A program made the position numbers and the translations under genes. This document shows, piece by piece, positions 245 to 30,535 of a stretch of DNA of 38,342 nt. The stretch is from a virus. Its lineage: Duplodnaviria; Caudoviricetes. How positions within the stretch are numbered: position 1 is the stretch's first letter; each line of letters opens with the position of its first letter. The notes under the pieces were generated by a model. That model was not told the origin of the DNA and did no database searches. It saw nothing but the letters and a program-made list of their open reading frames with translations. The DNA lies in the IMG/VR virus record IMGVR_UViG_3300029183_000012, positions 1 to 38,342 of that record, one strand, 5' to 3'.

Positions 245-309
245 TATTAAAAAGCTTCAAAGTTTCCTTCCCCTCTCTTCTAAAAACACCCACTTTTTAA
301 GCAACAAAC

Positions 310-380: not shown

Positions 381-2732
381 ATGCTGAATTTGAAACGCTT
401 TTCCAGCGCGCTGTTGCTCTTATTTATCGCCAGCGCAGGCGCAGATATTCGGTTTATACAAACCGGTTCGTTAGGTTGGGAATGCGTTGAAGTTGTCAAC
501 GGCAGCGACATTCACGTTTCATGGCACAACGCGCAACATAAGGCCGTTGAGTGCGCGGTCAATGAGCAGCTTGAGAATCCGAATAAGGAGTATCAGGCGA
601 AGTCGACCGAGCGAATCCGGTTAGAAATTATTCGCGATGCCAATGGTCAAGGGTTGTTAGGTAACGGTGATGATCCTACGCCTTCTGCAAATTCAGCACC
701 TTTCTGGACGTCGACACCTGACCCTACTTGCGAAGCCGGCGTTGCCAGCACTTACGATCTAGATCAACACACGTCTGATCCGGACGGCGACTCGTTAACG
801 TATGCGTTGAACGGCGGATCAACGACGCTGCCGACAGGTGTGACGCTTAGTGGTTCGGACATTGTGTGCGGAGTCGGCACGTCGATAGGATCAACATCAG
901 GTGTGATCATCGATGTGGATGACGGCACTGCGGCAGCTGTAGCATCGAGTGCGTTTACGATCGACGTCACTGATTCTGGTGAAGAAGCGGCCGACTTTAC
1001 GATCTGTGACTCAGGTTGCGACTACACGTTAATTCAAGATGCGTACGACTCGGAAGCAGCACCCGGTGTCATCTTTGAGTTGCGTTCAACACCGGCAGGA
1101 ACGACGGATACGTGGGACCAGGACGATTGGGACTTAGGAACGATCGACGGTACGTACAACAACCCGATCACGTTTCGAGTACGTTCGGGTGACACCATTG
1201 TCTTCACGTCGACTAACGAAACGAGTCATGAGGACATCATTGAATTTGATGATGCACACTATTTCATTATTAAAAGTGATCCCGATGGATTGCAACTAGG
1301 GCGGGACGAAACACTCAACGGTTGGATATATGGAACAGGTGCAAGTCAAGGACGGTTTGGAGTTGAGCATAGACGCTGGTTACACAGCAATAACGACCCT
1401 TCGAGTCACATCATATTTGACGGCGTTCGGGTGTACGGCGGGTCTTCTTTTGATTCCGGTTGGATCGACAACGACGCTAGTCACTTTGGGTTTTTTAACT
1501 GCGAGGTATCGCACTCTGGTGTAAACGGTGGTGACGAAGCGCCGGATCGCGGCGGGAATAATTTAACACTCAGAGCGAATAACTCCATTGTGCAGGGGTG
1601 TTTCTTTCAATTTGGCGGTCATGACAATTTGCACTTGGAAAGTCCGTATCAAGTTGCCAGGAAGAACATCTTAGACGGTAGTTGGGTGCAATACGACTCG
1701 ACAGCGCCAGGTCGCGGCAATCGCGCATTTACGATGGAGGGTAGTAAAGGTCAATCACCGCACGGGCCGAATCTAGTTGAAAAAAACGTTATTCGGTTCG
1801 CTGAATCGGATTTGAATAACGATGCACAAGCCTGCGGTAAATTTTCAGGACGTCGCAACGTTGTCCGATTGAATTACTTGTACGACTGTGTCGACGGAGA
1901 AGTTTATTCCATAAGTGTGCTGCGTGAAGTCGGTGTTGCAGCAACTAACGAGATACAGATTTACAACAATACCGAAGTCGGCAATCAGATGGTGTTGGAG
2001 TCGACTGACATCAATTTGGGCTCTGATGCCGACAATAATTACTTTGGTTGGAAGTATTTCAACAACATTGCGACTGACATTAAGTCTGAAGGGTCGCAGT
2101 TTGACGGATCGCACGTTCGGGTCATTCGTTCAAACTCATCGTCGTCGCAATTTTCAAACGCTTGGCGTGACTCTTTGTACACAAACAACATCTTTTCGAT
2201 GGCGTCAGGTACGTTCCGAACACGATTGACAGGAGATGCAGGTTCGACGGAAGACGGTATTGCAGCTATTGAAGCGGAGTGGACTGTTCAATGGTCAGAC
2301 AATACAGGCACGGGACCAACCTTTGTCAGTGCAGGATCGAGATCGAGCAACGATTACAACACCATAGTCGCATCGTTTGAACTGGATACCGGTTCAGCCG
2401 GTATCGGTGCTGGAGACCCTCATACGTTAGCGAATGGGGCCGGTACAGCGTCGTCTTTGATGACCGTAGACAATGCGTTTCCGTTTGTCGTGTTGTCAGA
2501 CCCGGACACGTACGACATGCAGTGGTTCATCGACATGGGCTACGACGTGCCGACAGGCGACTGCGTATACGTCGATACGTGGGCCGCACCGGTACGATTG
2601 ACCGACATTAACTACAACACGAAGCAGTTGGTGTTGGCGTCACCGCAGACGTGGTCAAACAATGATCAGGTGTTCTTAGCCGATCCTGACGACTGTACAA
2701 CGGTGGTAGATAATCAAGGAGCGCATCAATAA
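381..2732 (+). CDS. Secreted protein with cadherin/Ig-like domain and right-handed beta-helix (depolymerase/adhesin-like)
   Basis: Signal peptide MLNLKRFSSALLLLFIASAGA. NSAP..SDPDGDSLTYAL..LPTGVTL cadherin/Ig-like motif. Asn-rich beta-helix-type region. 12 Cys. Confidence 0.75.
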   Translation: MLNLKRFSSALLLLFIASAGADIRFIQTGSLGWECVEVVNGSDIHVSWHNAQHKAVECAVNEQLENPNKEYQAKSTERIRLEIIRDANGQGLLGNGDDPTPSANSAPFWTSTPDPTCEAGVASTYDLDQHTSDPDGDSLTYALNGGSTTLPTGVTLSGSDIVCGVGTSIGSTSGVIIDVDDGTAAAVASSAFTIDVTDSGEEAADFTICDSGCDYTLIQDAYDSEAAPGVIFELRSTPAGTTDTWDQDDWDLGTIDGTYNNPITFRVRSGDTIVFTSTNETSHEDIIEFDDAHYFIIKSDPDGLQLGRDETLNGWIYGTGASQGRFGVEHRRWLHSNNDPSSHIIFDGVRVYGGSSFDSGWIDNDASHFGFFNCEVSHSGVNGGDEAPDRGGNNLTLRANNSIVQGCFFQFGGHDNLHLESPYQVARKNILDGSWVQYDSTAPGRGNRAFTMEGSKGQSPHGPNLVEKNVIRFAESDLNNDAQACGKFSGRRNVVRLNYLYDCVDGEVYSISVLREVGVAATNEIQIYNNTEVGNQMVLESTDINLGSDADNNYFGWKYFNNIATDIKSEGSQFDGSHVRVIRSNSSSSQFSNAWRDSLYTNNIFSMASGTFRTRLTGDAGSTEDGIAAIEAEWTVQWSDNTGTGPTFVSAGSRSSNDYNTIVASFELDTGSAGIGAGDPHTLANGAGTASSLMTVDNAFPFVVLSDPDTYDMQWFIDMGYDVPTGDCVYVDTWAAPVRLTDINYNTKQLVLASPQTWSNNDQVFLADPDDCTTVVDNQGAHQ

Positions 2733-4012
2733 TGCGTCAGTGGTTGATTGCGCTAGCGCTAGCACTGACAACGGTCGCAGTAAGTCACGCGCAAACACTT
2801 CGCGTTGAGTCGTTCACGTTACCGGCGACCGCGACGACGGTTGACGTGACGTGGTCGGGCGCTGGCACACCGGACGGTGTGTTGGTGTTTGGCGGGTATG
2901 CGACGGCGAACGATACGACAACGGCAGACGCAGGGTTGTCGTGCGGTATGAGTGATTTTTCGCAAGTCGCCGCGCATCACGTCAATGCGGAGGACGATCA
3001 AGGAACGACCGACGCTAATACAGCCCATGTCGAAGACGCTGTCCACTTGATCACGACTCCAGGTCTTAATTCTGAACTGGCGACGTTAACTGTTGCGACG
3101 ATCACAGACGGTGTACGATTCACACGCGGCGAGAGTGGTACGCAGTACATAGCGATGGCAGTAGGTGTTTTTGCTGATGATTTTCAAGTCTTTAGTAGCG
3201 GTGACACAACGACAGCAGACAGTACGTTTAACATTGCTCATAGTTTCGGTGTCTCTCCAGAAGCAGGCATCTATTGCTATGCACAGGCCAATGAGAGTGA
3301 AAGTGCGGCTGCTCGATTAAGCATTGGGATGCATTCAGGCGGTGCATCGTTCGAGCAAGCAGCGTTTTCTTTTACGTTCGGCAATAATGATGCGGATGGT
3401 GAAGAACATGCCCAAGTTCGCAATGATCGAGTAGGATTCGTTACAAACTTCGGCGGTGGCGGTGAATCAACCGGATTTGAACTGACGACGAATGGCAGTT
3501 CGCTGGTCACTTTCACGGCACGATCAGGTGTCGCAAGCGGTGATCTGGTAGGCGGGTTTTTTCACCTACCCACAGTTGACACGGACATCATTTTGATTGA
3601 TTCGCCCGATGCGACAGGTGCGTGGGCAGAGAGTGGATTTGCTTTTGAGCCGGGTTCGATATTCGGCGTCATAAACCAAATGACCACGGTAAATACAGCA
3701 GTTACAGACAATGCAGCCGCCGGCACGGCTAGCGTCTTTGCTACTGATTTTACTACAGAGCGTTCTGCAAGTATCATGGATGAAAATGGCGTGACGCCTT
3801 CCGACGCGGCTTCGCGATTGTCTACCGAACTTTGGCTGGGTGATGACGATCAAACTGAAAGCTATGCGTGTAACGGGCTTTCGGCGGAAAGTGACGGTTG
3901 GAGTGCTACCTGTGATAGCGCCAACGGCACGACGCATCTTTGGCCTTTTCTGGCTTTTGAGCAGAACGATAACATCGCCGTGCTCTACGACTACTACCTA
4001 AGAGATCGTTGA
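2732..4012 (+). CDS. Secreted acidic beta-rich protein with apparent threefold internal repeat
   Basis: Signal peptide MRQWLIALALALTTVAVSHA. Repeat-like segments GAGTPDGVLVFG / SFGVSPEAGIYC / SGFAFEPGSIFG. C-terminal tail IAVLYDYYLRDR. TAATG coupling to the previous gene. Confidence 0.7.
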   Translation: MRQWLIALALALTTVAVSHAQTLRVESFTLPATATTVDVTWSGAGTPDGVLVFGGYATANDTTTADAGLSCGMSDFSQVAAHHVNAEDDQGTTDANTAHVEDAVHLITTPGLNSELATLTVATITDGVRFTRGESGTQYIAMAVGVFADDFQVFSSGDTTTADSTFNIAHSFGVSPEAGIYCYAQANESESAAARLSIGMHSGGASFEQAAFSFTFGNNDADGEEHAQVRNDRVGFVTNFGGGGESTGFELTTNGSSLVTFTARSGVASGDLVGGFFHLPTVDTDIILIDSPDATGAWAESGFAFEPGSIFGVINQMTTVNTAVTDNAAAGTASVFATDFTTERSASIMDENGVTPSDAASRLSTELWLGDDDQTESYACNGLSAESDGWSATCDSANGTTHLWPFLAFEQNDNIAVLYDYYLRDR

Positions 4013-4013
4013 T

Positions 4014-5120
4014 ATGAAACGAGTACTGTTTCTAGCGCTTGCACTGTGCGCGCCTTTTATTGCTCAAGCGACAGACTTGCGAGCAGACACGGCGTCTACC
4101 ATCGTCGTCGGCCCTATCGTCAATTCGTCCGGCGTAGCTCAGACAGCTGAAGCCATAACGCAGGCAGATGTGCAGTTGTGGAAAGAAGGCGGTACGGTTT
4201 TTGCGCAGAAAAACGAGTCAACGTCTTGCACCCATCGATTAGACGGGTTTTATACATGCCCAATCAATGCGACCGATACGGACACAGAAGGTGTCCTAGT
4301 TATACAAGTTGCTGAAGGATCAAACTTGATATGGCGAGGGAACTATAGAGTTGTCGCGGCTGACTTCTACGATGCGACCTATGTCGATGGCGATCTCATT
4401 AACAATTTCGACGTCGGAGTCCTTCGAGAAGATACGATCGCTACGGTCACATCTCAAACGGAATACGATCTGACAACGACGATTGTCACCGATGATAACT
4501 GGCTTAATTTGATAATTACGATTCAAGATGTCAGTTCAGGTGAAGTCGTCACTCGTTATGTAACCGACGTAGATCAAGCCAATGATCGGGTCACGATCAA
4601 CACGGCACCACCTTTTACGGTTGCCGTTAACGACGTAGTCAGAATTAAAGATTCCGTTCATCCCGTTGCTGCATCAACATCTTACGGCGCGGCAACGTCT
4701 ACTCAATTAACAAACAGTGAAAATTCTATCGAAGACACGGTAGTCGGCGTCGGTCAGTTGCTAGCGCGATCGGATGCTGCAATTAAAGCGGATCGATCGT
4801 CATTGTTGGCGTTGATCAATAACGACGAAGGAACGGGTGCAGGTGACTACGATAACGAAACAGATTCGTTAGAAGTTGCGCCGACGACAACGCGTGACGC
4901 TATTATGCGGTATACGTTGGAAACGGGAATTGAGTTTGAAGAATTCGCCTGTCATGCGATGGCTATCTTGCTAGGAGAATCTGATTACACGTCAGGTACC
5001 GGCACGGCCGTATTTCAAGACCCTAACGGCACAAACAATCGAGTGACTGTAGTGTACGGGACAGACAATGGTGATCGAACGACGATCACTTTGAACGTTG
5101 CAAACTGCGGAAGTAACTAA
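4014..5120 (+). CDS. Secreted fibre/hub-like protein, paralogue of 8714-10510 at the C-terminus
   Basis: Signal peptide MKRVLFLALALCAPFIAQA. C-terminal FQDPNGTNNRVTVVYGTDNGDRT aligns with ADPSGGETRFTLIYGTDLDGDRT. Confidence 0.7.
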   Translation: MKRVLFLALALCAPFIAQATDLRADTASTIVVGPIVNSSGVAQTAEAITQADVQLWKEGGTVFAQKNESTSCTHRLDGFYTCPINATDTDTEGVLVIQVAEGSNLIWRGNYRVVAADFYDATYVDGDLINNFDVGVLREDTIATVTSQTEYDLTTTIVTDDNWLNLIITIQDVSSGEVVTRYVTDVDQANDRVTINTAPPFTVAVNDVVRIKDSVHPVAASTSYGAATSTQLTNSENSIEDTVVGVGQLLARSDAAIKADRSSLLALINNDEGTGAGDYDNETDSLEVAPTTTRDAIMRYTLETGIEFEEFACHAMAILLGESDYTSGTGTAVFQDPNGTNNRVTVVYGTDNGDRTTITLNVANCGSN

Positions 5121-7372
5121 TGTTTGAAAAATTTCAGAAAGCAGTTTTGGCCGTTTTGACGGTGCTGTGCGCGTCTGTTGTGTTGGCGCAAATCGATTCG
5201 ATTCGTCAGTCACCTTACGACTATGCGTGCTATGGGCCGACCGGGTTGATTTCCGGTCATCAGCGATACGATAAAGCGCAGGCGAAATGTGTCAGTGAAA
5301 AAGTAGGTGATCCCAGCGGGGATTACGAGGTAAGGGGTGGCGCCTGGAGTATCGTTTTTAGCGATGCATTTGCGCAGTCGCTCCACACCATCGTCCCCCC
5401 AGTAGGCGTTACGGGCCTCACCTCCGGTAATGAGCTGGGCATCTTCACGGATCGTCAGGACGATCCTAGAAACCAGCTCCATGTCGATGAAGCGGAGATT
5501 TACGGCGCCGACACGGTGCCTGATGCGTTTGAAGGGTGTCTTGCGATCTACACCGAGAACGCGGATCGCGGCGATTCTAGTGCCAGCTTAGTCACCTTCA
5601 CGCCCACCCAGCCTATTCAGGCGTGCGTTTGGCATCTGGATGACATCTCACTCAAGCCGACGTGGCTGGCCAGCGAGGGCTTTACCGACTACGGCTACAG
5701 TCTGATTCGTGGTTCGGGCGCGTCACAGCAGACGGCTACAGCCTATTGCGACACGCCCTCGAATGCCGCTCGAACGCTAGGCGGCAATCGTCACACGACC
5801 GATGACGGCGTACTCACCGAAGAGAACTACACCGTCTCGTTGTGTCCGGCATGGCGTGCAGTGGTTTCGGTAGCGCCACCGTCAAGTAATGCCGGGGAAT
5901 ACACCTTCGGTGTGGCGTCTTACCAGGTTGATGAGGGTGGAACGAGAGAGTCGGGGTTAGCGATTCGAGCAAACGGTTCTGATGGAGCGGCATCTGTCCA
6001 GTCTCGGGACGCACAAACAGGGTCATGCGTTGAGCCAGACGACTACACCATCGTTACCGATCCGCAAACGAATAGTTGGGGTGACGGAGAGAGCGGCGCA
6101 AAAGCGCACTTTCAGATCGTTGCGGGCGGTGTTGATGGCCAGGTAGACGGCGATTGCACGGTCGATTTTGAGTTCAATGATGCTAGCGCGACTGGCGGCA
6201 TCGTTCCTGGTGCGATCACGACCCACACGGTCACGATTCGCGATGTCACGTCACCCTCAAATGCCGACTACTTCGTCTCACCGTCAGGGAATGATAGTAA
6301 TAACGGCACTTCGACCTTAACGCCTTGGGCGACCTGTCAGCACGCTGCGAATAACGTCAGTGCAGGCGATGTCGTTCAGTTTAGGGGCGGTGTTTACTCG
6401 AACACTTACAACTGCACGCTGAGTGCGAACGGCACGTCGGGCAATCGTATCGTCTTCGAGAACTACCCCGGCGAGACGCCTATTCTGGACGCCTCACACC
6501 TACCTCAGGTGTATGCGACGCGCTGGAGCAGCGCGGTCGGGATTCTGAGAGTGACGGGTGATTTCGTCACAGTGCAGGGGCTAGAGATACGCGAGTCACC
6601 TAACTTCGGCATCCGCTGGTCGGGCGATGACGGCATCATCGACAACAATCACGTCCACGACACGATGCTGACCGGCATAGGCATTGACCGAAATGCCAAT
6701 GCCAAGCGACCTCAAGTCAGCAACAACCTCGTTCACGATGCGTTCGACGATGACGGTGCTGGTGGTGGTGGCGGCGATGCCGATTGCATCAGCTTCTTCG
6801 GGACGGGTGGTGGTGCGCTCGGTAGTGACGGCATCTTCGAAGATAACGAGATGTACAACTGCTCGGACGACGGTATCGACGTGTTTCAGTCGAACAACAA
6901 CATCATCCGCTACAACAAGATTTACGACATTGGTCTCAACAACGGCAACGGCAACGGCATCAAAGCGGGACCGGGTGTCAACTTCCAGTCAGACAATCTG
7001 ATCTACGGCAACACGGTCGAGAACTGCACGACCGGCGGCTACGATGACAATCTGGGCCAAGGCAACGAGTATTACAACAACACGGCCGTAGATTGCGCCA
7101 ACAACTACCGCGTCAATTCCAATTCGACGCTGCAAAACAACCTGTGCTTTACCGGTACGTGTTCTTACAGCTTTGGATCGTTCAATAGCTGGAATTTAGG
7201 CACCGGAAACCCGCTGTTTGTGAGCACCGATTCGGCGAATGCGAACTACCTTCGCTTAACGGAGTGCACCAGCCCCGCCATTGATGTGGGTACAGACGTG
7301 TCGAGCGAGACCGGCGCGTCATCGAACGGTGATGCCTTTGACCTTGGCGCTTTTGAGACCACCTGTCCGTGA
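5120..7372 (+). CDS. Secreted multidomain protein: Calx-beta-like domain plus DUF1565/PL9-like beta-helix polysaccharide lyase
   Basis: Signal peptide ending VVLA. Calx-beta-like AGEYTFGVASYQVDEGG...WGDGESGAK. DYFVSPSGNDSNNGT..PWAT. SDDGID...GNGNGIKAG resembles the PL9 active-site motifs. C-terminal SPAIDVG..DLGAFE. Confidence 0.75.
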   Translation: MFEKFQKAVLAVLTVLCASVVLAQIDSIRQSPYDYACYGPTGLISGHQRYDKAQAKCVSEKVGDPSGDYEVRGGAWSIVFSDAFAQSLHTIVPPVGVTGLTSGNELGIFTDRQDDPRNQLHVDEAEIYGADTVPDAFEGCLAIYTENADRGDSSASLVTFTPTQPIQACVWHLDDISLKPTWLASEGFTDYGYSLIRGSGASQQTATAYCDTPSNAARTLGGNRHTTDDGVLTEENYTVSLCPAWRAVVSVAPPSSNAGEYTFGVASYQVDEGGTRESGLAIRANGSDGAASVQSRDAQTGSCVEPDDYTIVTDPQTNSWGDGESGAKAHFQIVAGGVDGQVDGDCTVDFEFNDASATGGIVPGAITTHTVTIRDVTSPSNADYFVSPSGNDSNNGTSTLTPWATCQHAANNVSAGDVVQFRGGVYSNTYNCTLSANGTSGNRIVFENYPGETPILDASHLPQVYATRWSSAVGILRVTGDFVTVQGLEIRESPNFGIRWSGDDGIIDNNHVHDTMLTGIGIDRNANAKRPQVSNNLVHDAFDDDGAGGGGGDADCISFFGTGGGALGSDGIFEDNEMYNCSDDGIDVFQSNNNIIRYNKIYDIGLNNGNGNGIKAGPGVNFQSDNLIYGNTVENCTTGGYDDNLGQGNEYYNNTAVDCANNYRVNSNSTLQNNLCFTGTCSYSFGSFNSWNLGTGNPLFVSTDSANANYLRLTECTSPAIDVGTDVSSETGASSNGDAFDLGAFETTCP

Positions 7373-7393
7373 CAGAAAACTAGGAGATTACAA

Positions 7394-7864
7394 ATGGCTA
7401 TTGGCACAGACAGTGCTATTCATTTTTTCGGTACAGAGGACGAGGTGACGGTGGCCTCGCCGGGTGCGGTCAACGCCGGGGCGTTTAGCGTAACCGGAGA
7501 TGTCAACGACTGGACCAATGACGATGATGCGCCGATGGCGGTGTTTAAGCTAAAACTAACAGCCGCTGGGTTGTCAGCCGCGCCCACGGCCGGTGAGCTG
7601 GTGTCGCTGTATTGCCGCCATATGGACGTGGAAGGAACCGAGGACACGCCGGTCCCTGATGCGAATTACCCGCATACTTACCTCGGGTCGTTTATTGTCG
7701 ATGCGGTCGACGCCGATCAGGTTCACATCCTGACGGCTGAGCTTCCCAACTACGAAACCTCTCAGGTGTACGAGTTTTTCATAGAGAACAACATGACGCC
7801 GAATATTGCGTCTAGCGGTTGGGAGCTTTGGGTGACGCCACGAACTGTTGGGCCTCGTGGCTAA
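7394..7864 (+). CDS. Phage structural-type hypothetical protein (beta-sandwich-like, no signal peptide)
   Basis: AGGAG RBS upstream. 156 aa, acidic and beta-rich. Overlaps the following LamG gene. Confidence 0.7.
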   Translation: MAIGTDSAIHFFGTEDEVTVASPGAVNAGAFSVTGDVNDWTNDDDAPMAVFKLKLTAAGLSAAPTAGELVSLYCRHMDVEGTEDTPVPDANYPHTYLGSFIVDAVDADQVHILTAELPNYETSQVYEFFIENNMTPNIASSGWELWVTPRTVGPRG

Positions 7865-8717
7865 CGTTCTCTCCGTACCTAGGACGGCGGGCCTACAGCC
7901 GGGCCCGGGTACGCCTATCGCTATCTCGCATCCTTTGCGTAGAGGGCTTGCTGCGGCGTTCAACGGCGCGGATGGAGCGGCTCCCGGTCACCCTATTTAC
8001 GATCCGGTCGTGAACGGATATTCGGGCGGGTACGTTCATTCGTCCGCCGATAGATCGAAAAAAGTCCTATCTCGGGGGATCGTCGAGCACCACAATCCGG
8101 ACGGGGCGGGCACCAACGATATTTTGATTTGGCTGCCTACCGCAAAGCACAACTTCCTAGCGACGAATAATTGGTCTTTCTTTTGCTTTGTGCGAATGGA
8201 CTCGGGCAAGGGTAGTGGCAGCGAACATACCTTGGTTTCAACCTGGCAAGGAAATCAAAATAACAGTAATTACCAGGCTGATCCGTCTGGAGCCGATCTA
8301 GACGATGGGGAGTGGCATAGTGTTGGCGCGACCTGGAACGATGGAAATAAGACGGTCTCGATCTATGAGGACGGACAGTTTTCCTCATCCAGCGTCATTA
8401 GTGCCACTCACGAGGATCAGTTTTTGTTGCGGTACGAGCCCTCGGACGACTCGCAAGAGTTTTTCTTATCGACAGAGTCCGCCAACCCCAAAAGAGACCT
8501 TCATCTCGGTTCGACCGATGGGTACACAACGGACAATTTATCGGGCGGCATTGGGTCGGCTTACATGTGGAGTGAGCGAATATTGCAAGAGCGAGAAATG
8601 CTCGCTTTGCACAATAACCCCTGGTGGCCTTTTAGAGGTCCGACCGATACGGGGTCGAACATAATTACTGGTGCCGGTGCAGCCGTGAGTGCGCTTTTAT
8701 TGAGGCGAAGACGATGA
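7857..8717 (+). CDS. LamG/concanavalin A-like lectin domain protein
   Basis: WSFFCFVR...DLDDGEWHSVGATW...IYEDG...LHLG...GGIGSAYMWSERIL is the LamG pattern. GTG at 7857 is the likely start (the ORF track uses TTG 7848). Tail ALLLRRRR. Confidence 0.8.
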   Translation: MANVLSVPRTAGLQPGPGTPIAISHPLRRGLAAAFNGADGAAPGHPIYDPVVNGYSGGYVHSSADRSKKVLSRGIVEHHNPDGAGTNDILIWLPTAKHNFLATNNWSFFCFVRMDSGKGSGSEHTLVSTWQGNQNNSNYQADPSGADLDDGEWHSVGATWNDGNKTVSIYEDGQFSSSSVISATHEDQFLLRYEPSDDSQEFFLSTESANPKRDLHLGSTDGYTTDNLSGGIGSAYMWSERILQEREMLALHNNPWWPFRGPTDTGSNIITGAGAAVSALLLRRRR

Positions 8718-10510
8718 AAAAACTTACTACCCTTGTCACTTTGTTACTGCTGACACCACTTGCGGATGCGGGTCAAACCTTTATCAGAGAGTATGGAAGG
8801 GCATCGACTATCTCGTTCGACCTGTTTGCCACAGACGGCACGATTTCAATTTCGGAAAGCGATGGTGGTACGGATGCGCAGGTATTTTGTGGGCACACCG
8901 ATGAGACAGGGACGGACTCCAACTCGGATTATGAGGATGAGGGCAGGCGTTACTCGCTTGCGTTAACTGCGGAAGAGCTTGAGTGTGATCCGTTAATCAT
9001 CCAGGTCGATGCCACTGTCTATGAGAACTTATACGTTGAGACCTGTGGCTCTCCTAATGCGACGCACATGCTGTGTCCCGGTGGTGGGTACTTGACGGGT
9101 GGCACATCTACCTCAGCTTCTAACACCACGACCCAAACGCAATTGGATACGTCATTGAGTTTTGCCGATGGCGATTTAGTTGGGTATTTGATCTGTCAAG
9201 TCGAGGATGTTACCAGCGGTGACCCCAAAGGGCAGTGCAAGCCAATCACCGTTTATGCAGGCACATCGGATACTGCTACGCACGCGGCGTTCATTTCGGC
9301 GCTTCCCCAGAACGGCGAGTACATTGTTAAAGATGACCCACGAAGCGTCCAGGTCTGCGACGCGAGCGGCATATGCGAAGTCAATGTGGTTGAGATTGAG
9401 GACCTAGGCGCTACCGCTCAGATCACGGAGTACGCCGATAACGTCAGCTCGATGGATGCTGGCGTTATCACATCGTCTGTCTTTGAAACTGGCGCTATTG
9501 ATGCTAATGCAGCCGCAACAAACTTCATTGGTTCGGACGAACTTGCGGATGCAGCAGCTCAAAAGATCATCGACGAGTTCGAAACACAGAGTCAGGCTGA
9601 CCCGACAGGCTTCCAAGTCAATGTGAAAGAAGTCGACGATACGGCTCAGACAGGTAACGACAATGGCGCTGACATCAACGCGATTCTTGCTGACACAAAT
9701 GAACTGCAAACCGACGACATACCTGGCGACATAGCGGCTCTCAATGATTTGAGTGCGGCTGAGGTGAACGCAGAGGTCGATACGGGGCTTTCGGATATCC
9801 ACCTCGATCACTTATTTGCAGTCGCGTTCGACTCAGCCTCACCGCCGGGAAGTGCCACATCGTTCTACAACGAGCTAACCGAGAATGATGGCGGGTTAAC
9901 GCGATTCACGGCAAATGCACTTGAGCAGGGTCCTTCGGGAGGTGGCGGCGGCGCGTCTGCTGCTGCAATTGCCGACGCTGTTTGGGATGAACTTCAAAAT
10001 GAACACGCGACAGCAGGTTCTTTTGGAGAGACGGCTACAGAAATCGCTTCGATTCTTGACGATACCGGTACGTCCGGTGTAGCGCTTACACCGAACTCCA
10101 TCACTTCAGGAATTATCGCAGCAAACGCGATCGGTGCGTCAGAGATTGCGGATGATGCGATAGGTGCAGGAGAGATAGCTGCAGATGCAATAGGTGCTTC
10201 AGAAATAGCATCAAATGCGATAGGGTCTCCCGAAATCGCGGCGGACGCAATTGGTTCGTCCGAGTTGGCTGAAAGCGCGAGCACTGAAATTTGGGGAATA
10301 TCTTGTGAAGATCAAGGATCAGGATATTCATGTCGAGAAGTTATGAGCTTACTACTGGCTGAAGCAATGGGCACTTGCACATACACTACGGGCACTAGAA
10401 CGTGGTCTTGCGCCGATCCTTCGGGCGGCGAGACACGCTTCACGCTTATCTACGGGACGGACCTTGACGGCGACAGAACCTCGTCTACGCCAACTCCGTT
10501 TACTCCGTAA
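8714..10510 (+). CDS. Secreted fibre-like protein with 10-aa AIGASEIAxD repeats
   Basis: Signal peptide MKKLTTLVTLLLLTPLADA. 12 Cys. AIADAVWDE motif and decapeptide repeats. C-terminal DGDRT domain shared with 4014-5120. Confidence 0.75.
   Translation: MKKLTTLVTLLLLTPLADAGQTFIREYGRASTISFDLFATDGTISISESDGGTDAQVFCGHTDETGTDSNSDYEDEGRRYSLALTAEELECDPLIIQVDATVYENLYVETCGSPNATHMLCPGGGYLTGGTSTSASNTTTQTQLDTSLSFADGDLVGYLICQVEDVTSGDPKGQCKPITVYAGTSDTATHAAFISALPQNGEYIVKDDPRSVQVCDASGICEVNVVEIEDLGATAQITEYADNVSSMDAGVITSSVFETGAIDANAAATNFIGSDELADAAAQKIIDEFETQSQADPTGFQVNVKEVDDTAQTGNDNGADINAILADTNELQTDDIPGDIAALNDLSAAEVNAEVDTGLSDIHLDHLFAVAFDSASPPGSATSFYNELTENDGGLTRFTANALEQGPSGGGGGASAAAIADAVWDELQNEHATAGSFGETATEIASILDDTGTSGVALTPNSITSGIIAANAIGASEIADDAIGAGEIAADAIGASEIASNAIGSPEIAADAIGSSELAESASTEIWGISCEDQGSGYSCREVMSLLLAEAMGTCTYTTGTRTWSCADPSGGETRFTLIYGTDLDGDRTSSTPTPFTP
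10127..10276 (+). repeat. Five 30-bp coding repeats (AIGASEIADD type)
   Basis: AIGASEIADD AIGAGEIAAD AIGASEIASN AIGSPEIAAD AIGSSELAES, with synonymously diverged codons. Confidence 0.85.
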
Positions 10511-10857
10511 TGGCTAACACTCCTGGGCAACCTGAAGGACACACTCCTGGCGGTCACACGCCAGGAGGTCACTCACCTTCATCGTCTTCGTCTCCGGGCG
10601 TAGATGCAGGAGATGTGCATTTTCCGGATAAACACTTTCCAGATAGACACTTTCACGGTCGGCACTTTCCAGGCGCAGCGGCCACTGGTGGTGGCGGGAT
10701 GCAACCGGTATCTGGAAGAAAACCGGTAGCCAGGAAGATCAGCGTACGTTCGGTTTCATTTGCATTGTCGGGGCTGGAGCGAGAATACCCGGTGTATCAA
10801 TTTTCACGACGCGCATTTTTTGAGCGTACGGGTCACAACCCTTTTGACGGTTTATGA
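10510..10857 (+). CDS. Small His-rich repeat protein (GHTPG and HFPxx repeats), cassette-terminal
   Basis: TAATG-coupled. QPEGHTPGGHTPGGHSP and HFPDKHFPDRHFHGRHFPG. Confidence 0.7.
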   Translation: MANTPGQPEGHTPGGHTPGGHSPSSSSSPGVDAGDVHFPDKHFPDRHFHGRHFPGAAATGGGGMQPVSGRKPVARKISVRSVSFALSGLEREYPVYQFSRRAFFERTGHNPFDGL

Positions 10858-11051
10858 GGAAGAAAGATTTTCTACTTATCCTTGAAAACCCAACAGGCGT
10901 AGTTCAGGAATATGAGCGCCGCATTGATGAACCTTGGCATGCAAGATGGAAACGGTTGACCGGTGTCATGCCGAAAATTAAAGAGAAAAAATCGGTAAAA
11001 AATGCAGACCCTTCGAGAGGCCGCATTCTTTCAGCGGCTAAAGTGAGGTAG
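10854..11051 (+). CDS. Small basic hypothetical protein
   Basis: ATGA overlap with the previous gene. Fills the gap before terS. Confidence 0.5.
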   Translation: MRKKDFLLILENPTGVVQEYERRIDEPWHARWKRLTGVMPKIKEKKSVKNADPSRGRILSAAKVR

Positions 11052-11061
11052 ACACAAAGTA

Positions 11062-11883
11062 ATGCTTAAGCCGGCAGGAAAAGTTGCAAGAAAACATGCA
11101 TTCGATTGGATGGACGAAGACAATACTTCGAAAGTCGTTCGACGTGACAAGGTGGAAGGCGCAACGTTGCGAACTAAACGTAAACGTTTAGGTCATCGAC
11201 AAGCCTTACAACGTCGAACCATGACGGATTTATTGTGGAAGCGATATCTAGAACACACATCGAACGGGCATACTAGAAAGCAATGCGCTGATGCGTGCAA
11301 AGTCACTCAAGAAACGGTCGAAGCGTATCTCATTCATAACGTGGCAGCTATAAAAGAGCTGCACGAAGCCGAGCAAGTATGGCTCAGACGCAACTGGAAT
11401 TACGATCAAATAGATGAAATTTTGAATCTTGTCTCTAGCGGAAGCACTGTTAAAGCAGCTTGCGAAGCGCACGGTTACAGTGAAAAAGATCGGCTTAAGT
11501 TTTTTCAATTAGTTCGTAAAGATAAAACACTTCGCGATTGGTACGACATTGCTCGTGAAATGCAAGCTGAGAGCTGGATGGATGATTCAATAGATATTGC
11601 CGATAACACCAATGACAAATTGATAGACGCCAAAGGTGTAGAGCGAGTTGATCACGGCATGGTGCAACGTGATCGACTTCGGATAGACACGCGTTGGCGA
11701 ACTATGGGTGCGCTAAATCGTAAACGTTTTGGCGAGCACAAACACATTGATCATGGTGGTGAAATTGCCGTCAACCATTCAGTTATTTTAGCGAACGCAA
11801 GAAAACGTCTTGAAAAAGTTCGTGGTACTACGATCGAAGGCGAAGCGACGCCTGTCGACACTGGAACAAAACAATCTCAATGA
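11062..11883 (+). CDS. terS: Terminase small subunit (Sf6 gp1-like) with N-terminal extension
   Basis: YDIAREMQAESWMDDSIDIAD...VQRDRLRIDTRWRTMGALNRKRFG is the typical TerS core. Immediately upstream of terL. Confidence 0.8.
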   Translation: MLKPAGKVARKHAFDWMDEDNTSKVVRRDKVEGATLRTKRKRLGHRQALQRRTMTDLLWKRYLEHTSNGHTRKQCADACKVTQETVEAYLIHNVAAIKELHEAEQVWLRRNWNYDQIDEILNLVSSGSTVKAACEAHGYSEKDRLKFFQLVRKDKTLRDWYDIAREMQAESWMDDSIDIADNTNDKLIDAKGVERVDHGMVQRDRLRIDTRWRTMGALNRKRFGEHKHIDHGGEIAVNHSVILANARKRLEKVRGTTIEGEATPVDTGTKQSQ

Positions 11884-13376
11884 GTTCATCAGCTCACAGC
11901 GTGGAAAAAGTCGAGTATCAGGAATGGTCGTCTGACGAATTTATAACGCCAAGTCAGTTTGAAAAACAATTGACTGTTGATATGGCTAAATTTTACGACG
12001 ATTTTCACGGTTTCGTGATGTACGCATTTCCGTGGAAAGAAAAAGGCACAGAACTTGAAGAACATTCAGGTCCGGATAAATGGCAGAAAGCACAACAAGA
12101 TCGAGTTAGCAAAGCTATTAAACGCGATCCTGAAGGCACCATACGCGAAGCTATTGCATCAGGGCACGGTATCGGCAAGTCAGCAGAAGTTGCTTGGATC
12201 ATTTTGTGGGCTATGTCGACACGCCCCCACCTAGCGGGAGTAATAACTGCGAATACGACGACGCAGCTAACCACTAAAACATGGCGTGAACTAGCGTTGT
12301 GGCATAAACGAACGATCAATGCTCATTGGTTCAAATGGACAGCAACAAAATTTTTCCATGTCGATCATCCTGAGACGTGGGCTTGCAACGCAACACCTAA
12401 CACTGAGCACAATTCGGAAGCGTTTGCAGGTCTTCACGGAACTCACGTATTGATCATATATGACGAAGCATCTGGCATCCCCGATAAAATTTGGGAAGTG
12501 TCTGAAGGCGCTATGACTGATCCACGAGCCATGTGGTTCGTGTACGGAAACCCGACAAAGAACACCGGTAAGTTCCGAGAAATATTTACCGACGATGCGC
12601 GCTGGACGACGCACAACATTGACAGTCGTTCATGCAAGATGACAAATAAAAAAGAAATCAACGAACAAATTGCTGAATACGGAGAAGATAGTGATTTCTG
12701 TCGAGTCCGAATTAAAGGTCAGTTCCCCCGTGCAGGCTCAATGCAGTTTATCGGATCAGACGTCTGCGACATGTGCATGCTCTACGAGGCTCCCTACGAA
12801 AGCTTTTTTCAGCTACCCATTGTACTTGGAGTGGATGTTGCACGTTTTGGTGAAGACAAAACCGTTATTGCCGTACGTCAGGGGCGAAAAGTTGTTGAGT
12901 TGGAACGATACCGGGATTTGGACACCATGCAGGTTGCGGCAAAAACGGTATCGGCTATCCGCAGATATAATCCGGCAGCGACTTTTGTCGATGGGGTTGG
13001 AATTGGAGCCGGAGTTGTTGACCGCTTACGGATGCTGGGACATGAAATCATTGAAGTCAACGCAGGCGTAAAACCGGATGACGACCTAACGTATTACAAC
13101 AAACGAGCGGAAATGTGGGATCGCATGCGCACGCAGATGCGAGACGGCATGGACTTACCCAATGACTCTGATCTTCGCAAAGCATTAATTGGTATTGAAT
13201 ACGGATTCGACGACAAAGAGCGTATGCGGCTTGAACGAAAACAAGATATGAAAAAACGCGGTTTGGAATCCCCAGACGACGGTGACGCCATAGCCTACAC
13301 GTATGCAGAGTTAATCGGCGATCATACTCAACGATATTTCGAACCTGATGATAACTTTGAGCCGGGAAGAATTTGA
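11880..13376 (+). CDS. terL: Terminase large subunit
   Basis: Walker A SGHGIGKS, Walker B LIIYDEA, motif III GNPT. Nuclease motifs GVDVARFGED and SPDDGDA. Confidence 0.95.
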   Translation: MSSSAHSVEKVEYQEWSSDEFITPSQFEKQLTVDMAKFYDDFHGFVMYAFPWKEKGTELEEHSGPDKWQKAQQDRVSKAIKRDPEGTIREAIASGHGIGKSAEVAWIILWAMSTRPHLAGVITANTTTQLTTKTWRELALWHKRTINAHWFKWTATKFFHVDHPETWACNATPNTEHNSEAFAGLHGTHVLIIYDEASGIPDKIWEVSEGAMTDPRAMWFVYGNPTKNTGKFREIFTDDARWTTHNIDSRSCKMTNKKEINEQIAEYGEDSDFCRVRIKGQFPRAGSMQFIGSDVCDMCMLYEAPYESFFQLPIVLGVDVARFGEDKTVIAVRQGRKVVELERYRDLDTMQVAAKTVSAIRRYNPAATFVDGVGIGAGVVDRLRMLGHEIIEVNAGVKPDDDLTYYNKRAEMWDRMRTQMRDGMDLPNDSDLRKALIGIEYGFDDKERMRLERKQDMKKRGLESPDDGDAIAYTYAELIGDHTQRYFEPDDNFEPGRI

Positions 13377-21052: not shown

Positions 21053-23236
21053 ATGCCGAGGCGTAGAAACCGTACGCGCACAAAATATTTTGCTATTGAG
21101 GGCGGGCTGGACGTCGTATCTCCAGCCGTCACGATAAAGCCTGGTCGTGCGTTGGCGATGCAAAACTTCGAACCTTGGTTCGAAGGAGGTTATCGCCGTA
21201 TTCCCGGTTACGAACGGTTCGACGGCCGGCCCAAACCTTCTGACGCCACGTTCATCGGATTCAATGTTGACGACGTTACCGGTTTGACTATTGGTGACAC
21301 GATTACTGGTGATACGTCAGGCGCTACTGGCACACTTATTGGTATTTGGGACGATGACGGCACGTACAGTGCTGACGCGATAGGAGTCACTAAAGTTATC
21401 GGCACATTTCAAATCGGAGAAACTTGCAATACGTCTGATTTTACAATTACGTCGAACCCTCTAACTCGATATGCGCCTAGTGTTGATCTTGAAGCAACGT
21501 TTCTCTTAGAAGCTGAAGATGAATATCGAACAGATATCGATCAAGTTCCCGGTACTTCAGTTTCACCTACGGTTTTTGCTTGGCGATTACGAGATAAAGT
21601 TTATGCGCTTAGAAGTGATGGATCAGACAACGTTCTTTATGTTGCATCAACATCGGGATGGACTACGACAGGCATTACGTTAGCTCATACAATACGTTTC
21701 GAAAATGGCGTAGCTGCTGGCGCAACTGTTCAAGAAGGTGACACACTTACAGGCGCAACAAGTGGCGCTACTGGCACGATTCACAGAATTGTACTACACG
21801 ACGGTGCTTGGGATGGATCAGGTGTAGGTTATTTCGTTTTAACGAACATCGTAGGTACGTTTACTAACGCAGAAACTTTAGAATCGCCCGCAGCTACGAC
21901 AATTGCCGATGCTATATCAACAACAGGTGACGTAGCTAAAGAATTTTCATTTAGCGCTGGCGTGTATCGATTCGTCAATCATAACTTTTTTGGCGGGGCA
22001 GATACGTATCGAGCGTACGGATGTTGTGGTTCTGGGGATGCGTTTGAAATAGATGAAAATGGCATAGTGTCACCTATTCATATGTTTAATGGTGGATCAA
22101 TTTCCGGTTCTCCATTTCTTATAGAAGTACACCGTAATCATTTGTTCTTGGCGTTTCCTGGCGGGTCTATTCAACATTCAATTCCGGGCGAGCCGTTAGT
22201 GTTTAGTGGATTTCTTGGTGCCGGTGAGTTCGGACTAGGCGATGATGTAACTTCACTTAACAGCATGGCAGGCGACGCATTAGTCGCAACTACGTCTAAC
22301 AGAACATTTGCGTTTTTCGGTAACGATGTCTCTGACTGGATATTGAAAACTATTTCCGAACGTTCAGGAGCAACACTGCAAGGAGCACAAAAACTTGACA
22401 CGGTGTATTCGCTTGATGATTTAGGTATTACGTCAGTAGCACGTACTGATCAATTTGGTGATTTTGTATCGGCATCCATGTCAAAACAAATTCAACCGCT
22501 TATTGCTAACAAACGCATTTCATACGCTACGGAAGAAGCAAGTCCTGGGTTTTTTGTAAGAACGTCAGAATTTAACGACTCAACTGTTGTCAGAAGATCC
22601 AATCAGTTTCGAATCTATTTTGACGAAGGCGAATGTATTGTCATGTTTGTACCCGTTGGTACGCAAACAGAAACAAGACAATCTAGAAGCAGATCGCAAC
22701 AATCGGAATTTGGTTTTCTTCGATATCCAATTCCTGTCAAAAATATTTATAACACTCAAGATGAAACAGGTTTTGAACGAACCTATTTCGTAACTTCGGA
22801 TTCTTCTAATCATGGATTTGTGTTTGAAGACCAAATCGGAAGAAATTTTGACGGCAATGCAATAGAAGCGTTTGTCCGTCTCGTGTTTAATCATTTAGGT
22901 TCACCCGGGTATAGAAAGAAATTTCGGCGTGTTGATTTTGAAATCCAAACAGCGCGGGCACTCAGTATTCAAGTTGTTTCAGACATTACTTACGGTTCGC
23001 CAAACGACCCCGTCAGTACGTTTACTATGAGCAGTGCAGGCAGTTCTAGTTTTTGGGATGACAATCAGTGGGATGAATTGATCTTTGAAGAACAATCTAT
23101 TTCTACCGGGCGAGCAGAATTGCGCGGTACCGGCGAGAATATAAGTTTTTTACTTTTTAACGACACGGCAAAAGCCGAACCTTGGATACTCCAAGGTGCA
23201 ATAGTGCATTTCGATTTGCGTCGACTGCAACGATAA
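21053..23236 (+). CDS. Tail nozzle / tubular protein B (P22 gp10/T7 gp12-like)
   Basis: GGLDVVSP..NFEP..GGYRRIPGY N-terminus. HRNHLFLA..IQHS beta-propeller blades. KKFRRVDFE C-terminal domain. Confidence 0.8.
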   Translation: MPRRRNRTRTKYFAIEGGLDVVSPAVTIKPGRALAMQNFEPWFEGGYRRIPGYERFDGRPKPSDATFIGFNVDDVTGLTIGDTITGDTSGATGTLIGIWDDDGTYSADAIGVTKVIGTFQIGETCNTSDFTITSNPLTRYAPSVDLEATFLLEAEDEYRTDIDQVPGTSVSPTVFAWRLRDKVYALRSDGSDNVLYVASTSGWTTTGITLAHTIRFENGVAAGATVQEGDTLTGATSGATGTIHRIVLHDGAWDGSGVGYFVLTNIVGTFTNAETLESPAATTIADAISTTGDVAKEFSFSAGVYRFVNHNFFGGADTYRAYGCCGSGDAFEIDENGIVSPIHMFNGGSISGSPFLIEVHRNHLFLAFPGGSIQHSIPGEPLVFSGFLGAGEFGLGDDVTSLNSMAGDALVATTSNRTFAFFGNDVSDWILKTISERSGATLQGAQKLDTVYSLDDLGITSVARTDQFGDFVSASMSKQIQPLIANKRISYATEEASPGFFVRTSEFNDSTVVRRSNQFRIYFDEGECIVMFVPVGTQTETRQSRSRSQQSEFGFLRYPIPVKNIYNTQDETGFERTYFVTSDSSNHGFVFEDQIGRNFDGNAIEAFVRLVFNHLGSPGYRKKFRRVDFEIQTARALSIQVVSDITYGSPNDPVSTFTMSSAGSSSFWDDNQWDELIFEEQSISTGRAELRGTGENISFLLFNDTAKAEPWILQGAIVHFDLRRLQR

Positions 23237-23250
23237 CGGATGAGCTAGCT

Positions 23251-24351
23251 ATGGCATTACTTTCTCAAGCACAAAGTCAGCTTTCGGGTGCAGATTCGTT
23301 GAATAATACGAATATATCTTATTCACCGACAACGTCTACAGGTGTGACTGTAGCTCAACCTGAAGCGCCTACTGTCCCTGAACTCTACCCTACGGCGCCT
23401 GTAGCAGAAGGACCGGACGTATCGAACATCGGAATCGATGTCACTGAAACTGATAAATCGGTTACGGAGATAGACACGTCAGGCTCTACAGCAACAGCCG
23501 AAACCGAAGCATTGCAAGATACCGCTTTGGCAGATGAAGAACTGGCACGCATCACAGCCAAAGACAGTCCGTTGCTTCAACGTGCTCGTGCCGACGCTAC
23601 GCGTTATGCTAATCGCAGAGGCTTGCAAAATTCATCGATTGCCGCTGGTGCGGCTGAAGGCGCTGTAGTCGATCGAGCGTTGCCTATGGCACTGCAGAAC
23701 GCGCAGCAAGCTAACCAAATGAAACAACTTGAAGCGCAACTTGGTACGCAAGTCAACATGTTTAACGCAGACCAACTTGCTGAAGCGTCTAAGTTGACTG
23801 CGCAAATGAATACAGCGCTGGCGCAGCAAGACGCGAACGCCTATAACCAAGCCGCGACTCGGATGGCTGAAATAAAGTTCACAGCTGAACAACAGCGTGC
23901 ATCGGAACAGCAACAATATAACAGCCAAGTCATAGACGCAGTTTCGAAAATTAACGAACAATATCTGCGCGGCACACAGGCGATTGATTTGGCAACGATT
24001 CAAGGAACGTATCAGCAAATCATTTCGACTAACCAAACGGCTGGCAATGTCTACCAATCCTATTTGAATGGCATTGCTTCGGTTATGGACAATCCCGAAA
24101 TGACGCCGGCACAAGTAGCTTCTGCGGTGAGTAATATGCAACGAGCATTGGACGGATCGTTACGTTTGATTTCGGAAATGAACAACATGGATTTTGGAGA
24201 TGAGCTTGGCGGGTCAGGGCCGCGCAATACGAATCCAGGCAACGTACCTGGAAGAAATCCAACAAGACCACCAAACGGGGGTCGTGACGGCATAGGTATC
24301 ACTCCAAATTATAATCCCGATAATCCGGATGGCATAGAGGATTATCGATGA
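23251..24351 (+). CDS. Putative internal virion/ejection protein
   Basis: Gln/Ala-rich helical protein with the NRRGLQNSSIAAGA motif seen in podophage internal proteins. ATG 23251 is preferred as the start. Confidence 0.65.
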   Translation: MALLSQAQSQLSGADSLNNTNISYSPTTSTGVTVAQPEAPTVPELYPTAPVAEGPDVSNIGIDVTETDKSVTEIDTSGSTATAETEALQDTALADEELARITAKDSPLLQRARADATRYANRRGLQNSSIAAGAAEGAVVDRALPMALQNAQQANQMKQLEAQLGTQVNMFNADQLAEASKLTAQMNTALAQQDANAYNQAATRMAEIKFTAEQQRASEQQQYNSQVIDAVSKINEQYLRGTQAIDLATIQGTYQQIISTNQTAGNVYQSYLNGIASVMDNPEMTPAQVASAVSNMQRALDGSLRLISEMNNMDFGDELGGSGPRNTNPGNVPGRNPTRPPNGGRDGIGITPNYNPDNPDGIEDYR

Positions 24352-30101: not shown

Positions 30102-30535
30102 AGAAAAGAACAGTCAGTGAAGAAGAATTAGGTCGTATGAAAAAACGCGGCGGTACGCGCGTTAGACGAAAGCAAGGTTCTAAAAAAGCTTCGCCGGAGC
30201 CGGAGAGGAAAGACGTTGAAGCTTTGTCGGGAGTGGTAGCGTCTGAATCTTCGGCTCCGGCAACTAAAAGTGCAGAAGATACTATTGCAACGGCTATAGC
30301 AGAAACATTAAAAGTACAACGTGCTGCAATGGCAGCAACTAACGTCGTTCGCGATGTGCATTTAGAAAAATTAATCGAAAACAATACCAAGGTAATAACA
30401 GCTTTTAAAAAAGAATTGCAAAACACGGAGACTTCAAAAGTTCAGACTCCGTGGCGACATAAAATCCGACGTAAACGAGATGGATTCATTGATTACATCG
30501 ATTCTTTTCCAATAGAAAGTAAGGAGATAGGCTAA
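30092..30535 (+). CDS. Hypothetical protein leading the second fibre cassette
   Basis: Basic N-terminus, helical middle, C-terminal WRHKIRRKRDGFIDYI hairpin-like motif. The start may be GTG 30098. Confidence 0.65.
   Translation: MSVKKRTVSEEELGRMKKRGGTRVRRKQGSKKASPEPERKDVEALSGVVASESSAPATKSAEDTIATAIAETLKVQRAAMAATNVVRDVHLEKLIENNTKVITAFKKELQNTETSKVQTPWRHKIRRKRDGFIDYIDSFPIESKEIG

What the first reader, a model, noticed from the sequence alone, without database searches (positions are those of the whole stretch)
381..10857. Phage operon of Sec-exported, probably disulfide-bonded fibre/depolymerase proteins: candidate periplasm-matured virion appendage
Seen: five of the first seven ORFs (381, 2732, 4014, 5120, 8714) start with classic signal peptides (basic N-region, hydrophobic core, small-residue cleavage site such as AGA, SHA, AQA, VLA, ADA). 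Their mature chains contain 12, 4, 4, 18 and 12 Cys by my count, all even and often closely spaced (CDSGC, CDASGIC, CEDQGSGYSC, CTYTTGTRTWSC). The two signal-less ORFs in the same operon have 1 Cys each, and the four large proteins of the second cassette have 3, 3, 3 and 0. Established: tailed-phage virions assemble in the reducing cytoplasm, and their structural proteins normally lack signal peptides. Inference: these proteins look like virion fibre parts (decapeptide fibre repeats, LamG partner, depolymerase-type beta-helices), run on the same strand into terS/terL, and mirror the layout of the second cassette. They may be exported, oxidised by the host Dsb system and added to particles at or after lysis. 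Alternatively they may form a surface structure on the infected cell.
Basis: partly seen in the sequence, partly recalled or inferred. Interest (0 to 1): 0.88.

Follow-up and report, generated by a model that had tools for sequence, protein, structure and literature searches.

The report
Phage appendage kit with export signals
A short-tailed aquatic phage puts export-type signal peptides and extra, even-numbered cysteines on five members of a widespread but unnamed family of phage stalk and sugar-binding proteins, which likely means these parts fold outside the cytoplasm and would clip onto the virus particle only when the cell bursts, a route I found no paper on for tailed phages.

Summary
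Observation confirmed. Five ORFs carry Sec-type leaders (my own rule; no SignalP) and 12, 4, 4, 18, 12 mature Cys: 1.8% against 0.4% in the eight signal-less appendage-like ORFs. The block is phage DNA: contigs bridge it to terL, and its last ORF runs into a conserved pre-terS gene. ORFs 4014 and 8714 are stalks of a very large, Pfam-less viral family that is usually signal-less (228 of 240). Leaders sit just before the normal start, are scattered over the tree, and go with more Cys. Genes come as tagged payload, stalk, small terminal protein; tag type tracks the stalk's first domain. This phage lacks the post-nozzle fibre found in 40 of 40 relatives. Best reading (0.55): periplasm-folded appendage that docks on virions at lysis. 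Main rival: free enzyme complex released at lysis (0.22). Against: no disulfide geometry, binding or virion evidence; one Cys pair is also in signal-less forms; a signal-less twin cassette is Cys-rich; the phylogenetically corrected Cys test is not significant. The scan noted similar cassettes on other DNA (28 notes).

The parts
381..2732 (+). Payload A, 783 aa: 21-aa leader, about 70-aa N-terminal Cys-pair domain (candidate docking domain), Ig-like domain, large beta-rich passenger; 12 Cys
   Evidence: N-domain 42% identical to a leader-bearing 903-aa protein in L245, weakly to 5120 (3 of 3000 shuffles); leader kept in relative P0220
2732..4012 (+). Payload B, 426 aa: 20-aa leader, 4 Cys, C-terminal HY.R-type tag
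   Evidence: collinear with signal-less L157 protein except for the leader; tag pattern match; look-alike clusters 86-92% viral
4014..5120 (+). Stalk C, 368 aa: 19-aa leader, Ig-like domain, beta-barrel, helices, C-terminal cap; 4 mature Cys
   Evidence: AF2 model pLDDT 79, fold search, 16,124 clusters at E<=0.001, no Pfam/PHROG/NCBIfam/PDB sequence hit
5120..7372 (+). Payload D, 750 aa: 23-aa leader, N-terminal Cys-pair domain, PL9-like right-handed beta-helix; 18 mature Cys
   Evidence: Pfam Beta_helix; PelN 62 bits versus cut-off 740; D555/D583/D587/K615 match PL9 by spacing only
7394..7864 (+). Signal-less 156-aa protein E that precedes the LamG gene
   Evidence: 46% identical to a gene in the all-signal-less cassette of L206, in the same position
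7848..8717 (+). Signal-less LamG lectin payload F ending in an LLLRRRR-type tag (start TTG 7848 or GTG 7857)
   Evidence: sub-threshold Laminin_G hits; same tag precedes 8714-type stalks in L124, L249, L262, L279
8714..10510 (+). Stalk G, 598 aa: 19-aa leader, second type of N-domain, decapeptide repeats, cap homologous to that of C; 12 Cys
   Evidence: PHROG 892 tail fibre E=2e-5; cap homology 0 of 3000 shuffles; C555/C566 shared with leader-bearing P0087
10510..10857 (+). Signal-less small terminal protein H (GHTPGG and HFP repeats), in frame with the conserved pre-terS ORF that would start near 10699; right border of the cassette
   Evidence: C-half hits 11 related podophage loci; N-motif shared with ORF 37032
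11062..13376 (+). terS and terL, directly downstream on the same strand
   Evidence: Logan contigs span 8042-12525 and 9720-12107
21053..24351 (+). Nozzle-slot gene followed directly by the ejection-slot gene: the fibre gene that relatives have here is absent
   Evidence: junction bridged by contigs 21810-30965 and 19000-32852
30535..37343 (+). Second, wholly signal-less appendage-like cassette between two large polyvalent proteins; internal control
   Evidence: the same slot holds other appendage-like genes in G001 and G005

Best explanation
The block encodes a modular phage appendage whose two stalks and three of its payloads carry cleavable export-type leaders and are likely sent to the periplasm late in infection, are predicted to fold and form disulfides there, and would dock with the signal-less parts and onto finished particles when lysis mixes the compartments. 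Shown: leaders, Cys excess, phage context, domain build, recurring gene order, tag/stalk co-variation. Inferred steps: (1) Sec export with signal peptidase I cleavage restores the N-terminus that signal-less relatives have; (2) host Dsb enzymes oxidise the added Cys; (3) C-terminal tags of B and F plug into the first domains of stalks C and G, while A and D use a shared N-terminal domain; (4) the stalk caps hook to the particle through the small protein H; (5) the site is more likely the head than the tail, because the module occurs in long- and short-tailed phages at many gene positions and beside a normal tail fibre in L124 and L137; (6) the displayed lectin and lyase bind and cut host surface polysaccharide.
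For: Leader added right before the start of collinear signal-less homologues. 12 of 240 non-redundant stalks carry leaders; 10 changes on the tree, at least 6 forced by strong branches. Leader-bearing stalks: 1.13 versus 0.45 Cys per 100 aa (p=2e-5), even counts 11/12 versus 134/228 (p=0.019). Cap domain: 24 of 28 signal-less caps have no Cys; G shares its C555/C566 pair with leader-bearing P0087. Neighbours switch together: 4/8 versus 3/53, p=0.004. Tag before C-type stalks in 36/59 versus 52/1178 other C-termini (post hoc pattern); LLRRRR tag before G-type stalks in 4 of 8. Signal-less F carries the tag that matches exported G, so the two could meet only after the inner membrane fails. The signal-less triad lies after the fibre gene of cultured phage PP496355.1. 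Syntenic leader-bearing cassettes lie before terminase in L245 and L246. Post-nozzle fibre anchor present for 40/40 relatives, absent from the window. No tyrosine integrase in 5 relatives; ORFs are coupled stop-to-start into terS.
Against: No member of the family, with or without leader, is shown here to be in a virion. Independent-pairs test of leader versus Cys is not significant (median p=0.375). C72/C82 is in 55/76 signal-less close homologues. Signal-less L157 homologues have 17 and 6 Cys. Leader-bearing L045, L248 and several payloads have 0 Cys. In L155 even the small terminal protein has a leader, so H is not a universal cytoplasmic hook. Two near-complete relatives lack the family, and L124 and L137 keep a normal fibre, so the kit is optional. 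The record is 64% complete, so a fibre elsewhere is not excluded. ORF 4014 has a TTG at codon 22 without a clear ribosome site, so a signal-less isoform is possible.
Confidence: 0.55

Rival explanations
1. Exported and stored in the periplasm, then released at lysis as a free lectin-lyase complex that clears capsule or biofilm matrix for progeny, without binding the particle.
For: 5120 resembles PL9-type lyases; free depolymerase activity is described for phages (PMC6116005, passage); no known virion anchor in the cassette; L155 exports all three parts.
Against: Stalks with fibre repeats and caps, and a small terminal protein whose motif recurs in the signal-less cassette, are hard to explain for a free enzyme; 95% of the family is signal-less and sits among morphogenesis genes.
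Confidence: 0.22
2. Acts in the envelope of the infected cell (receptor masking, superinfection exclusion, lysogenic conversion or a surface adhesin).
For: Leaders are of ordinary Sec type; phage-like fibres are displayed on Bdellovibrio cells (PMC10769870, passages).
Against: No lipobox, transmembrane anchor or LPxTG, no autotransporter or S74 Pfam hit; signal-less E, F and H could not join a surface structure; coupled to terS; no tyrosine integrase in 5 relatives (serine integrases not tested).
Confidence: 0.1
3. The leaders tether the proteins to the inner membrane or are bypassed by internal starts, so the appendage assembles from the cytoplasm as usual; Cys oxidise in air after lysis.
For: Cys pairs occur in signal-less members; TTG at codon 22 of 4014.
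Against: 2732 has no alternative start near the cleavage site; small-residue cleavage sites are kept in independent gains and in diverged P0220.
Confidence: 0.09
4. Bacterial secreted-protein genes, captured without function or joined to the phage contig by misassembly.
For: GC3 0.55 versus 0.42 in the core; library shows amplification-primer ends; the two runs may be the source sample.
Against: Contigs bridge the junction in both runs; ORF 10510 runs into a conserved phage ORF; families are viral; same cassette type before terminase in other contigs.
Confidence: 0.03

Closest known systems
Branched and chain-like phage receptor-binding complexes (rope plus fibre dimers of podophage A1002, PMC13730344, abstract and passages; docking peptides of KP32-type secondary RBPs, recalled and named in scan notes)
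   Same: Swappable host-recognition units dock on a scaffold protein through short segments.
   Different: Here the tag is C-terminal, the scaffold is an unnamed Ig-barrel-helix-cap stalk, and parts carry leaders; 'signal peptide' and 'disulfide' occur 0 times in the A1002 paper.
Inovirus pIII (recalled)
   Same: Phage adsorption protein with a Sec leader and Dsb-made disulfides.
   Different: pIII is membrane-anchored and built in during extrusion; this is a lytic HK97-type podophage with no anchors in the exported proteins.
Bdellovibrio MAT fibres (PMC10769870, passages)
   Same: Leader followed by a conserved beta-rich domain on phage-like fibres with varied tips.
   Different: MATs are chromosomal and displayed on the cell, 13 of 21 end in S74; these genes are phage-borne and have no S74 hit.
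Capsid decoration and tailspike proteins that bind finished particles in vitro (T4 Hoc, T5 pb10, phage L Dec, P22 tailspike; recalled)
   Same: Show that late, spontaneous addition to mature particles is chemically possible.
   Different: All are made in the cytoplasm without leaders.
PL9 pectate lyases Pel9A/PelN (PMC10992409, PMC6627557, passages)
   Same: Beta-helix with three Asp and a Lys in similar spacing in ORF 5120.
   Different: 62 bits versus cut-off 740; extra N-terminal domains; substrate unknown.
BppU-type N-terminal Ig domain of TP901-1 and 80alpha baseplates (3uh8, 6v8i)
   Same: Ig-like first domain of stalk C aligns at Z 6.6-7.0, rmsd about 3 A, 85-88 residues.
   Different: Z is in the range of unrelated Ig folds; no sequence match.

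Membership tests
Sec/SPI substrate | Basic n-region, hydrophobic core, small residues at -3/-1; no twin-Arg, no lipobox | tested here: met
   rule-based; SignalP not available
Sec/SPI substrate | Actual translocation and cleavage | not testable with these tools
   needs fusions or N-terminal proteomics
Disulfide-bonded exported protein | Cys paired in the fold | tested here: inconclusive
   models give no distances; 5120 model pLDDT 31; 4014 cap pLDDT about 50; parity and conservation only
Post-nozzle tail fibre of this podophage lineage | Conserved N-terminal anchor | tested here: not met
   profile from 25 anchors hits 40/40 relatives, nothing in six frames of the window at E<=10
Bdellovibrio MAT fibres | Encoded on a bacterial chromosome and shown on the cell surface | tested here: not met
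   virus record, contiguous with terminase; surface display itself not testable
Bdellovibrio MAT fibres | Conserved 130-aa domain after the leader | not tested
   no MAT sequence was compared
Trimeric autotransporter adhesins (Eib/YadA type, recalled) | C-terminal membrane-anchor domain | tested here: not met
   no Pfam or NCBIfam hit; C-terminal residues Q, R, N, P, P
PL9 lyase (ORF 5120) | Right-handed beta-helix | tested here: met
   PF13229 44 bits, cut-off 25.9
PL9 lyase (ORF 5120) | Three Ca-binding Asp and catalytic Lys | tested here: inconclusive
   spacing match only; no PL9 chain aligned in PDB sequence search
PelN equivalog NF041899 | Score above curated cut-off | tested here: not met
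   62 versus 740 bits
BppU-type N-terminal domain | Fold match standing clear of unrelated Ig domains | tested here: inconclusive
   Z 6.6-7.0 among many Ig folds of Z 6-8.4
Branched RBP docking systems | Conserved peptide physically binds the scaffold domain | not testable with these tools

The most novel reading that the evidence does not exclude
Tailed phages have a second, extracytoplasmic assembly line: a plug-and-socket appendage kit of one of the largest unnamed viral protein families can be switched, gene by gene and many times independently, to Sec export, mature with disulfides in the host periplasm, and snap onto virions during lysis; in this phage, which has lost its normal tail fibre, it may supply host recognition.
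Probability: 0.5. Interest if true: 0.9.

Novelty: new variant of a known kind. Interest (0 to 1): 0.76.

Why it matters
Tailed-phage particles are held to be finished in the cytoplasm (established knowledge). If these parts join at lysis, host Sec and Dsb systems become virion-maturation factors, and annotation that treats signal-peptide genes in phages as morons or captured host genes misses structural proteins. Even without export, a family of about 16,000 clusters with no Pfam model and a clear payload-stalk-terminal gene order is an undescribed display system. A cultured phage (PP496355.1) has the signal-less form, so virion association can be tested now.

Tried and rejected
Single-sequence AF2 of 5120 was unusable (pLDDT 31). 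Foldseek against PDB and BFVD gave only generic Ig or uncharacterised phage matches; lack of a named fold is no evidence of a new one. BLASTP of the first 120 aa of 381 and 5120 found nothing; only a trimmed shuffle test did (3/3000), and the 381 profile did not retrieve 5120, so that link is weak. No homologue of 5120 residues 20-260. Viral scans with 4014 alone, 7394 and the 381 N-terminus found no loci. The genome scan with a signal-less stalk gave one MAG contig, a phage-like block in Lysobacterales; the host of this phage stays unknown (nearest cultured capsids 54%, Vibrio phages). Promoter and terminator scans were at chance level. The first, loose leader rule gave false positives on signal-less stalks and was replaced. 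HFTV1 turrets as precedent: 0 mentions of signal peptide in the text. Rows dropped before the family count: 12 of 327 hits truncated or lacking the domain start, 2 ambiguous, 1 duplicate of the query, then 72 redundant at 70% identity. Literature searches found no tailed-phage virion protein with a Sec leader; subscription papers and supplements were not searched, so this is not proof of absence.
Full report
Context. The window is a linear IMG/VR virus record, 64% complete. It encodes terS (11062), terL (11880), an SU10-type portal (13769), major capsid protein (17759), SU10-type adaptor (20357), a nozzle-slot gene (21053; named from position and relatives, not from a family hit) and two large polyvalent proteins. 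This is a short-tailed phage. Relatives with 67-90% identical capsid protein are common in viral contigs. The host is unknown.

The observation. All counts are right. A rule-based leader test picks exactly the five named ORFs of 27. A stricter rule has 0 false positives in 307 core proteins but misses 8714. None of the five has a twin-Arg motif, lipobox, later membrane segment or LPxTG, so they would be soluble after cleavage. Cys density is 1.77% against 0.39% in the eight signal-less appendage-like ORFs (p=2e-7). A beta-helix is detected only in 5120. The two cassettes share just one 12-residue motif.

It is phage DNA. Contigs of two runs span 8042-12525 and 9720-12107 without differences; both runs may be the source sample. 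ORF 10510 continues in frame into a small ORF that hits 11 related loci and lies just before terS in G001. Look-alike clusters for 2732 and for the first domain of 4014 are 86-100% viral. GC3 is higher than in the core (0.55 versus 0.42) and two near-complete relatives lack the family, so the cassette is an acquired, optional block.

What the proteins are. 4014 folds (pLDDT 79; cap poorly) into an Ig-like domain, a beta-barrel, helices and a cap. Its profile hits 16,124 clusters at 50% identity, with no Pfam, PHROG, NCBIfam or PDB sequence match. 8714 has the same cap (0 of 3000 shuffles), decapeptide repeats matching a tail-fibre PHROG and a different first domain; P0087 has a 4014-type front and an 8714-type end. 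I call both stalks. 5120 is a PL9-like beta-helix; Asp555/583/587 and Lys615 match the published Pel9A residues by spacing only. 7848 is a LamG-like lectin. 381 has an Ig-like domain and an N-terminal domain that recurs after the leader of a protein in L245.

A gene grammar. Around C-type stalks the upstream gene ends in a short tag (roughly IPVxxxHYRxxR) in 36 of 59 loci, against 52 of 1178 other C-termini; the pattern was written after seeing the data. Before G-type stalks the tag is LLRRRR in 4 of 8 non-redundant loci. The window follows both rules: 2732 before 4014, 7848 before 8714. Downstream there is often a small protein with aromatic or His-Pro repeats whose type appears, by eye, to follow the cap type. 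The cultured phage PP496355.1 has the signal-less triad after its fibre-like gene; no paper on it was found.

The leader is an add-on. Of 240 non-redundant stalks 228 begin at the Ig domain and 12 have a leader of about 17-26 residues just before it. 2732 is collinear with a signal-less protein of L157 except for its first 20 residues; L157 has the same three-gene order, all signal-less, upstream of a terminase. Leaders are scattered on a tree of the Ig domain (10 changes, at least 6 forced; FastTree on 109 columns, so weakly resolved, and gain cannot be told from loss). Neighbours tend to switch together (4/8 versus 3/53). Leader-rich cassettes lie before terminase in L245 and L246 and inside the head genes of this phage's own relatives L124 and L137.

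Cysteines. Leader-bearing stalks have 1.13 versus 0.45 Cys per 100 residues (p=2e-5) and even counts in 11/12 versus 134/228 (p=0.019). In the cap, 24 of 28 signal-less members have none, while 8714 and P0087 share one pair. Against this: the independent-pairs test is not significant (3.7 versus 0.7 of 6 pairs); C72/C82 of 4014 occurs in 55 of 76 signal-less close homologues and 64 of 228 overall; L157's signal-less proteins have 17 and 6 Cys; some leader-bearing members have none. Disulfides are likely in this cassette but are not the general reason for export, and no model showed pairing.

The missing fibre. A profile of the post-nozzle fibre anchor (25 sequences, taken from these loci) hits all 40 nozzle-bearing relatives with enough flank and nothing in the window (redundancy not removed). 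Contigs bridge that junction. Host recognition must come from one of the two cassettes or from the unsequenced third of the genome.

Mechanism. The cassette is coupled stop-to-start into terS, and five relatives lack a tyrosine integrase, which points to late lytic expression (inference). Exported parts have no anchor, so in a diderm host they would wait in the periplasm. Signal-less 7848 carries the tag matching exported 8714, and 10510 is signal-less; they can meet only once the inner membrane fails. I therefore favour assembly at lysis onto particles (0.55), more likely on the head. Binding of decoration proteins and tailspikes to finished particles is recalled precedent. A free complex released at lysis (0.22) is the main rival; L155, where even the small protein has a leader, fits either.

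Comparison and novelty. It works like branched or chain-like receptor-binding complexes (PMC13730344, abstract and passages seen) combined with inovirus pIII-style export (recalled), but fails membership as lineage tail fibre, MAT fibre (PMC10769870, passages) or autotransporter. Six searches (listings only) found no report of Sec-exported virion parts in tailed phages. Also seen as passages: 10.1101/2024.12.09.627619, PMC10992409, PMC6627557, PMC6116005; no supplements were read. The scan's own notes hold 28 similar findings on other DNA; they are not independent support. Verdict: real feature, new variant of modular phage appendages, categorically new if post-lysis assembly is shown. Interest 0.76.

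Noticed in passing
window 1-17 and 38326-38342: Both ends carry the same 17-nt sequence in opposite orientation; contigs leave the window there and continue, so these are amplification-primer ends, not genome termini.
   Followed up: yes
window 65-261: Two 57-nt direct repeats (86% alike) and A/T tracts spaced about 33 nt upstream of the cassette; possibly an origin, packaging or promoter region.
   Followed up: no
window 10510-10560 and 37032-37080: The last small ORFs of both cassettes begin with the same QPxGHTPGGH motif; a candidate shared particle-binding peptide.
   Followed up: partly
window 32232-36484: ORF 32232 is a full-length paralogue (31%) of the C-terminal half of ORF 33533, which adds BclA_C-like domains.
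   Followed up: no
window 27213-30101 and 37340-38341: Large polyvalent proteins (InPase, LPD39) flank a variable slot that holds different appendage-like genes in G001 and G005; the first is 962 aa here, 1928 and 1327 aa there.
   Followed up: partly
L155:837-4220: Payload, stalk, small terminal protein and one more gene all carry leaders.
   Followed up: partly
L002:7395-7751, L019:4265-4636, L214:3329-3673: Small (115-125 aa) leader-bearing proteins sit ahead of stalk cassettes, two of them otherwise signal-less.
   Followed up: no
L124:752-1993 and L279:77-418: Payloads end in a shared extended tail after the LLRRRR tag.
   Followed up: no
L045:18954 and L053:18014: Leader-bearing genes also occur at the tail-tip position of long-tailed phages whose stalks have leaders but few Cys.
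   Followed up: no
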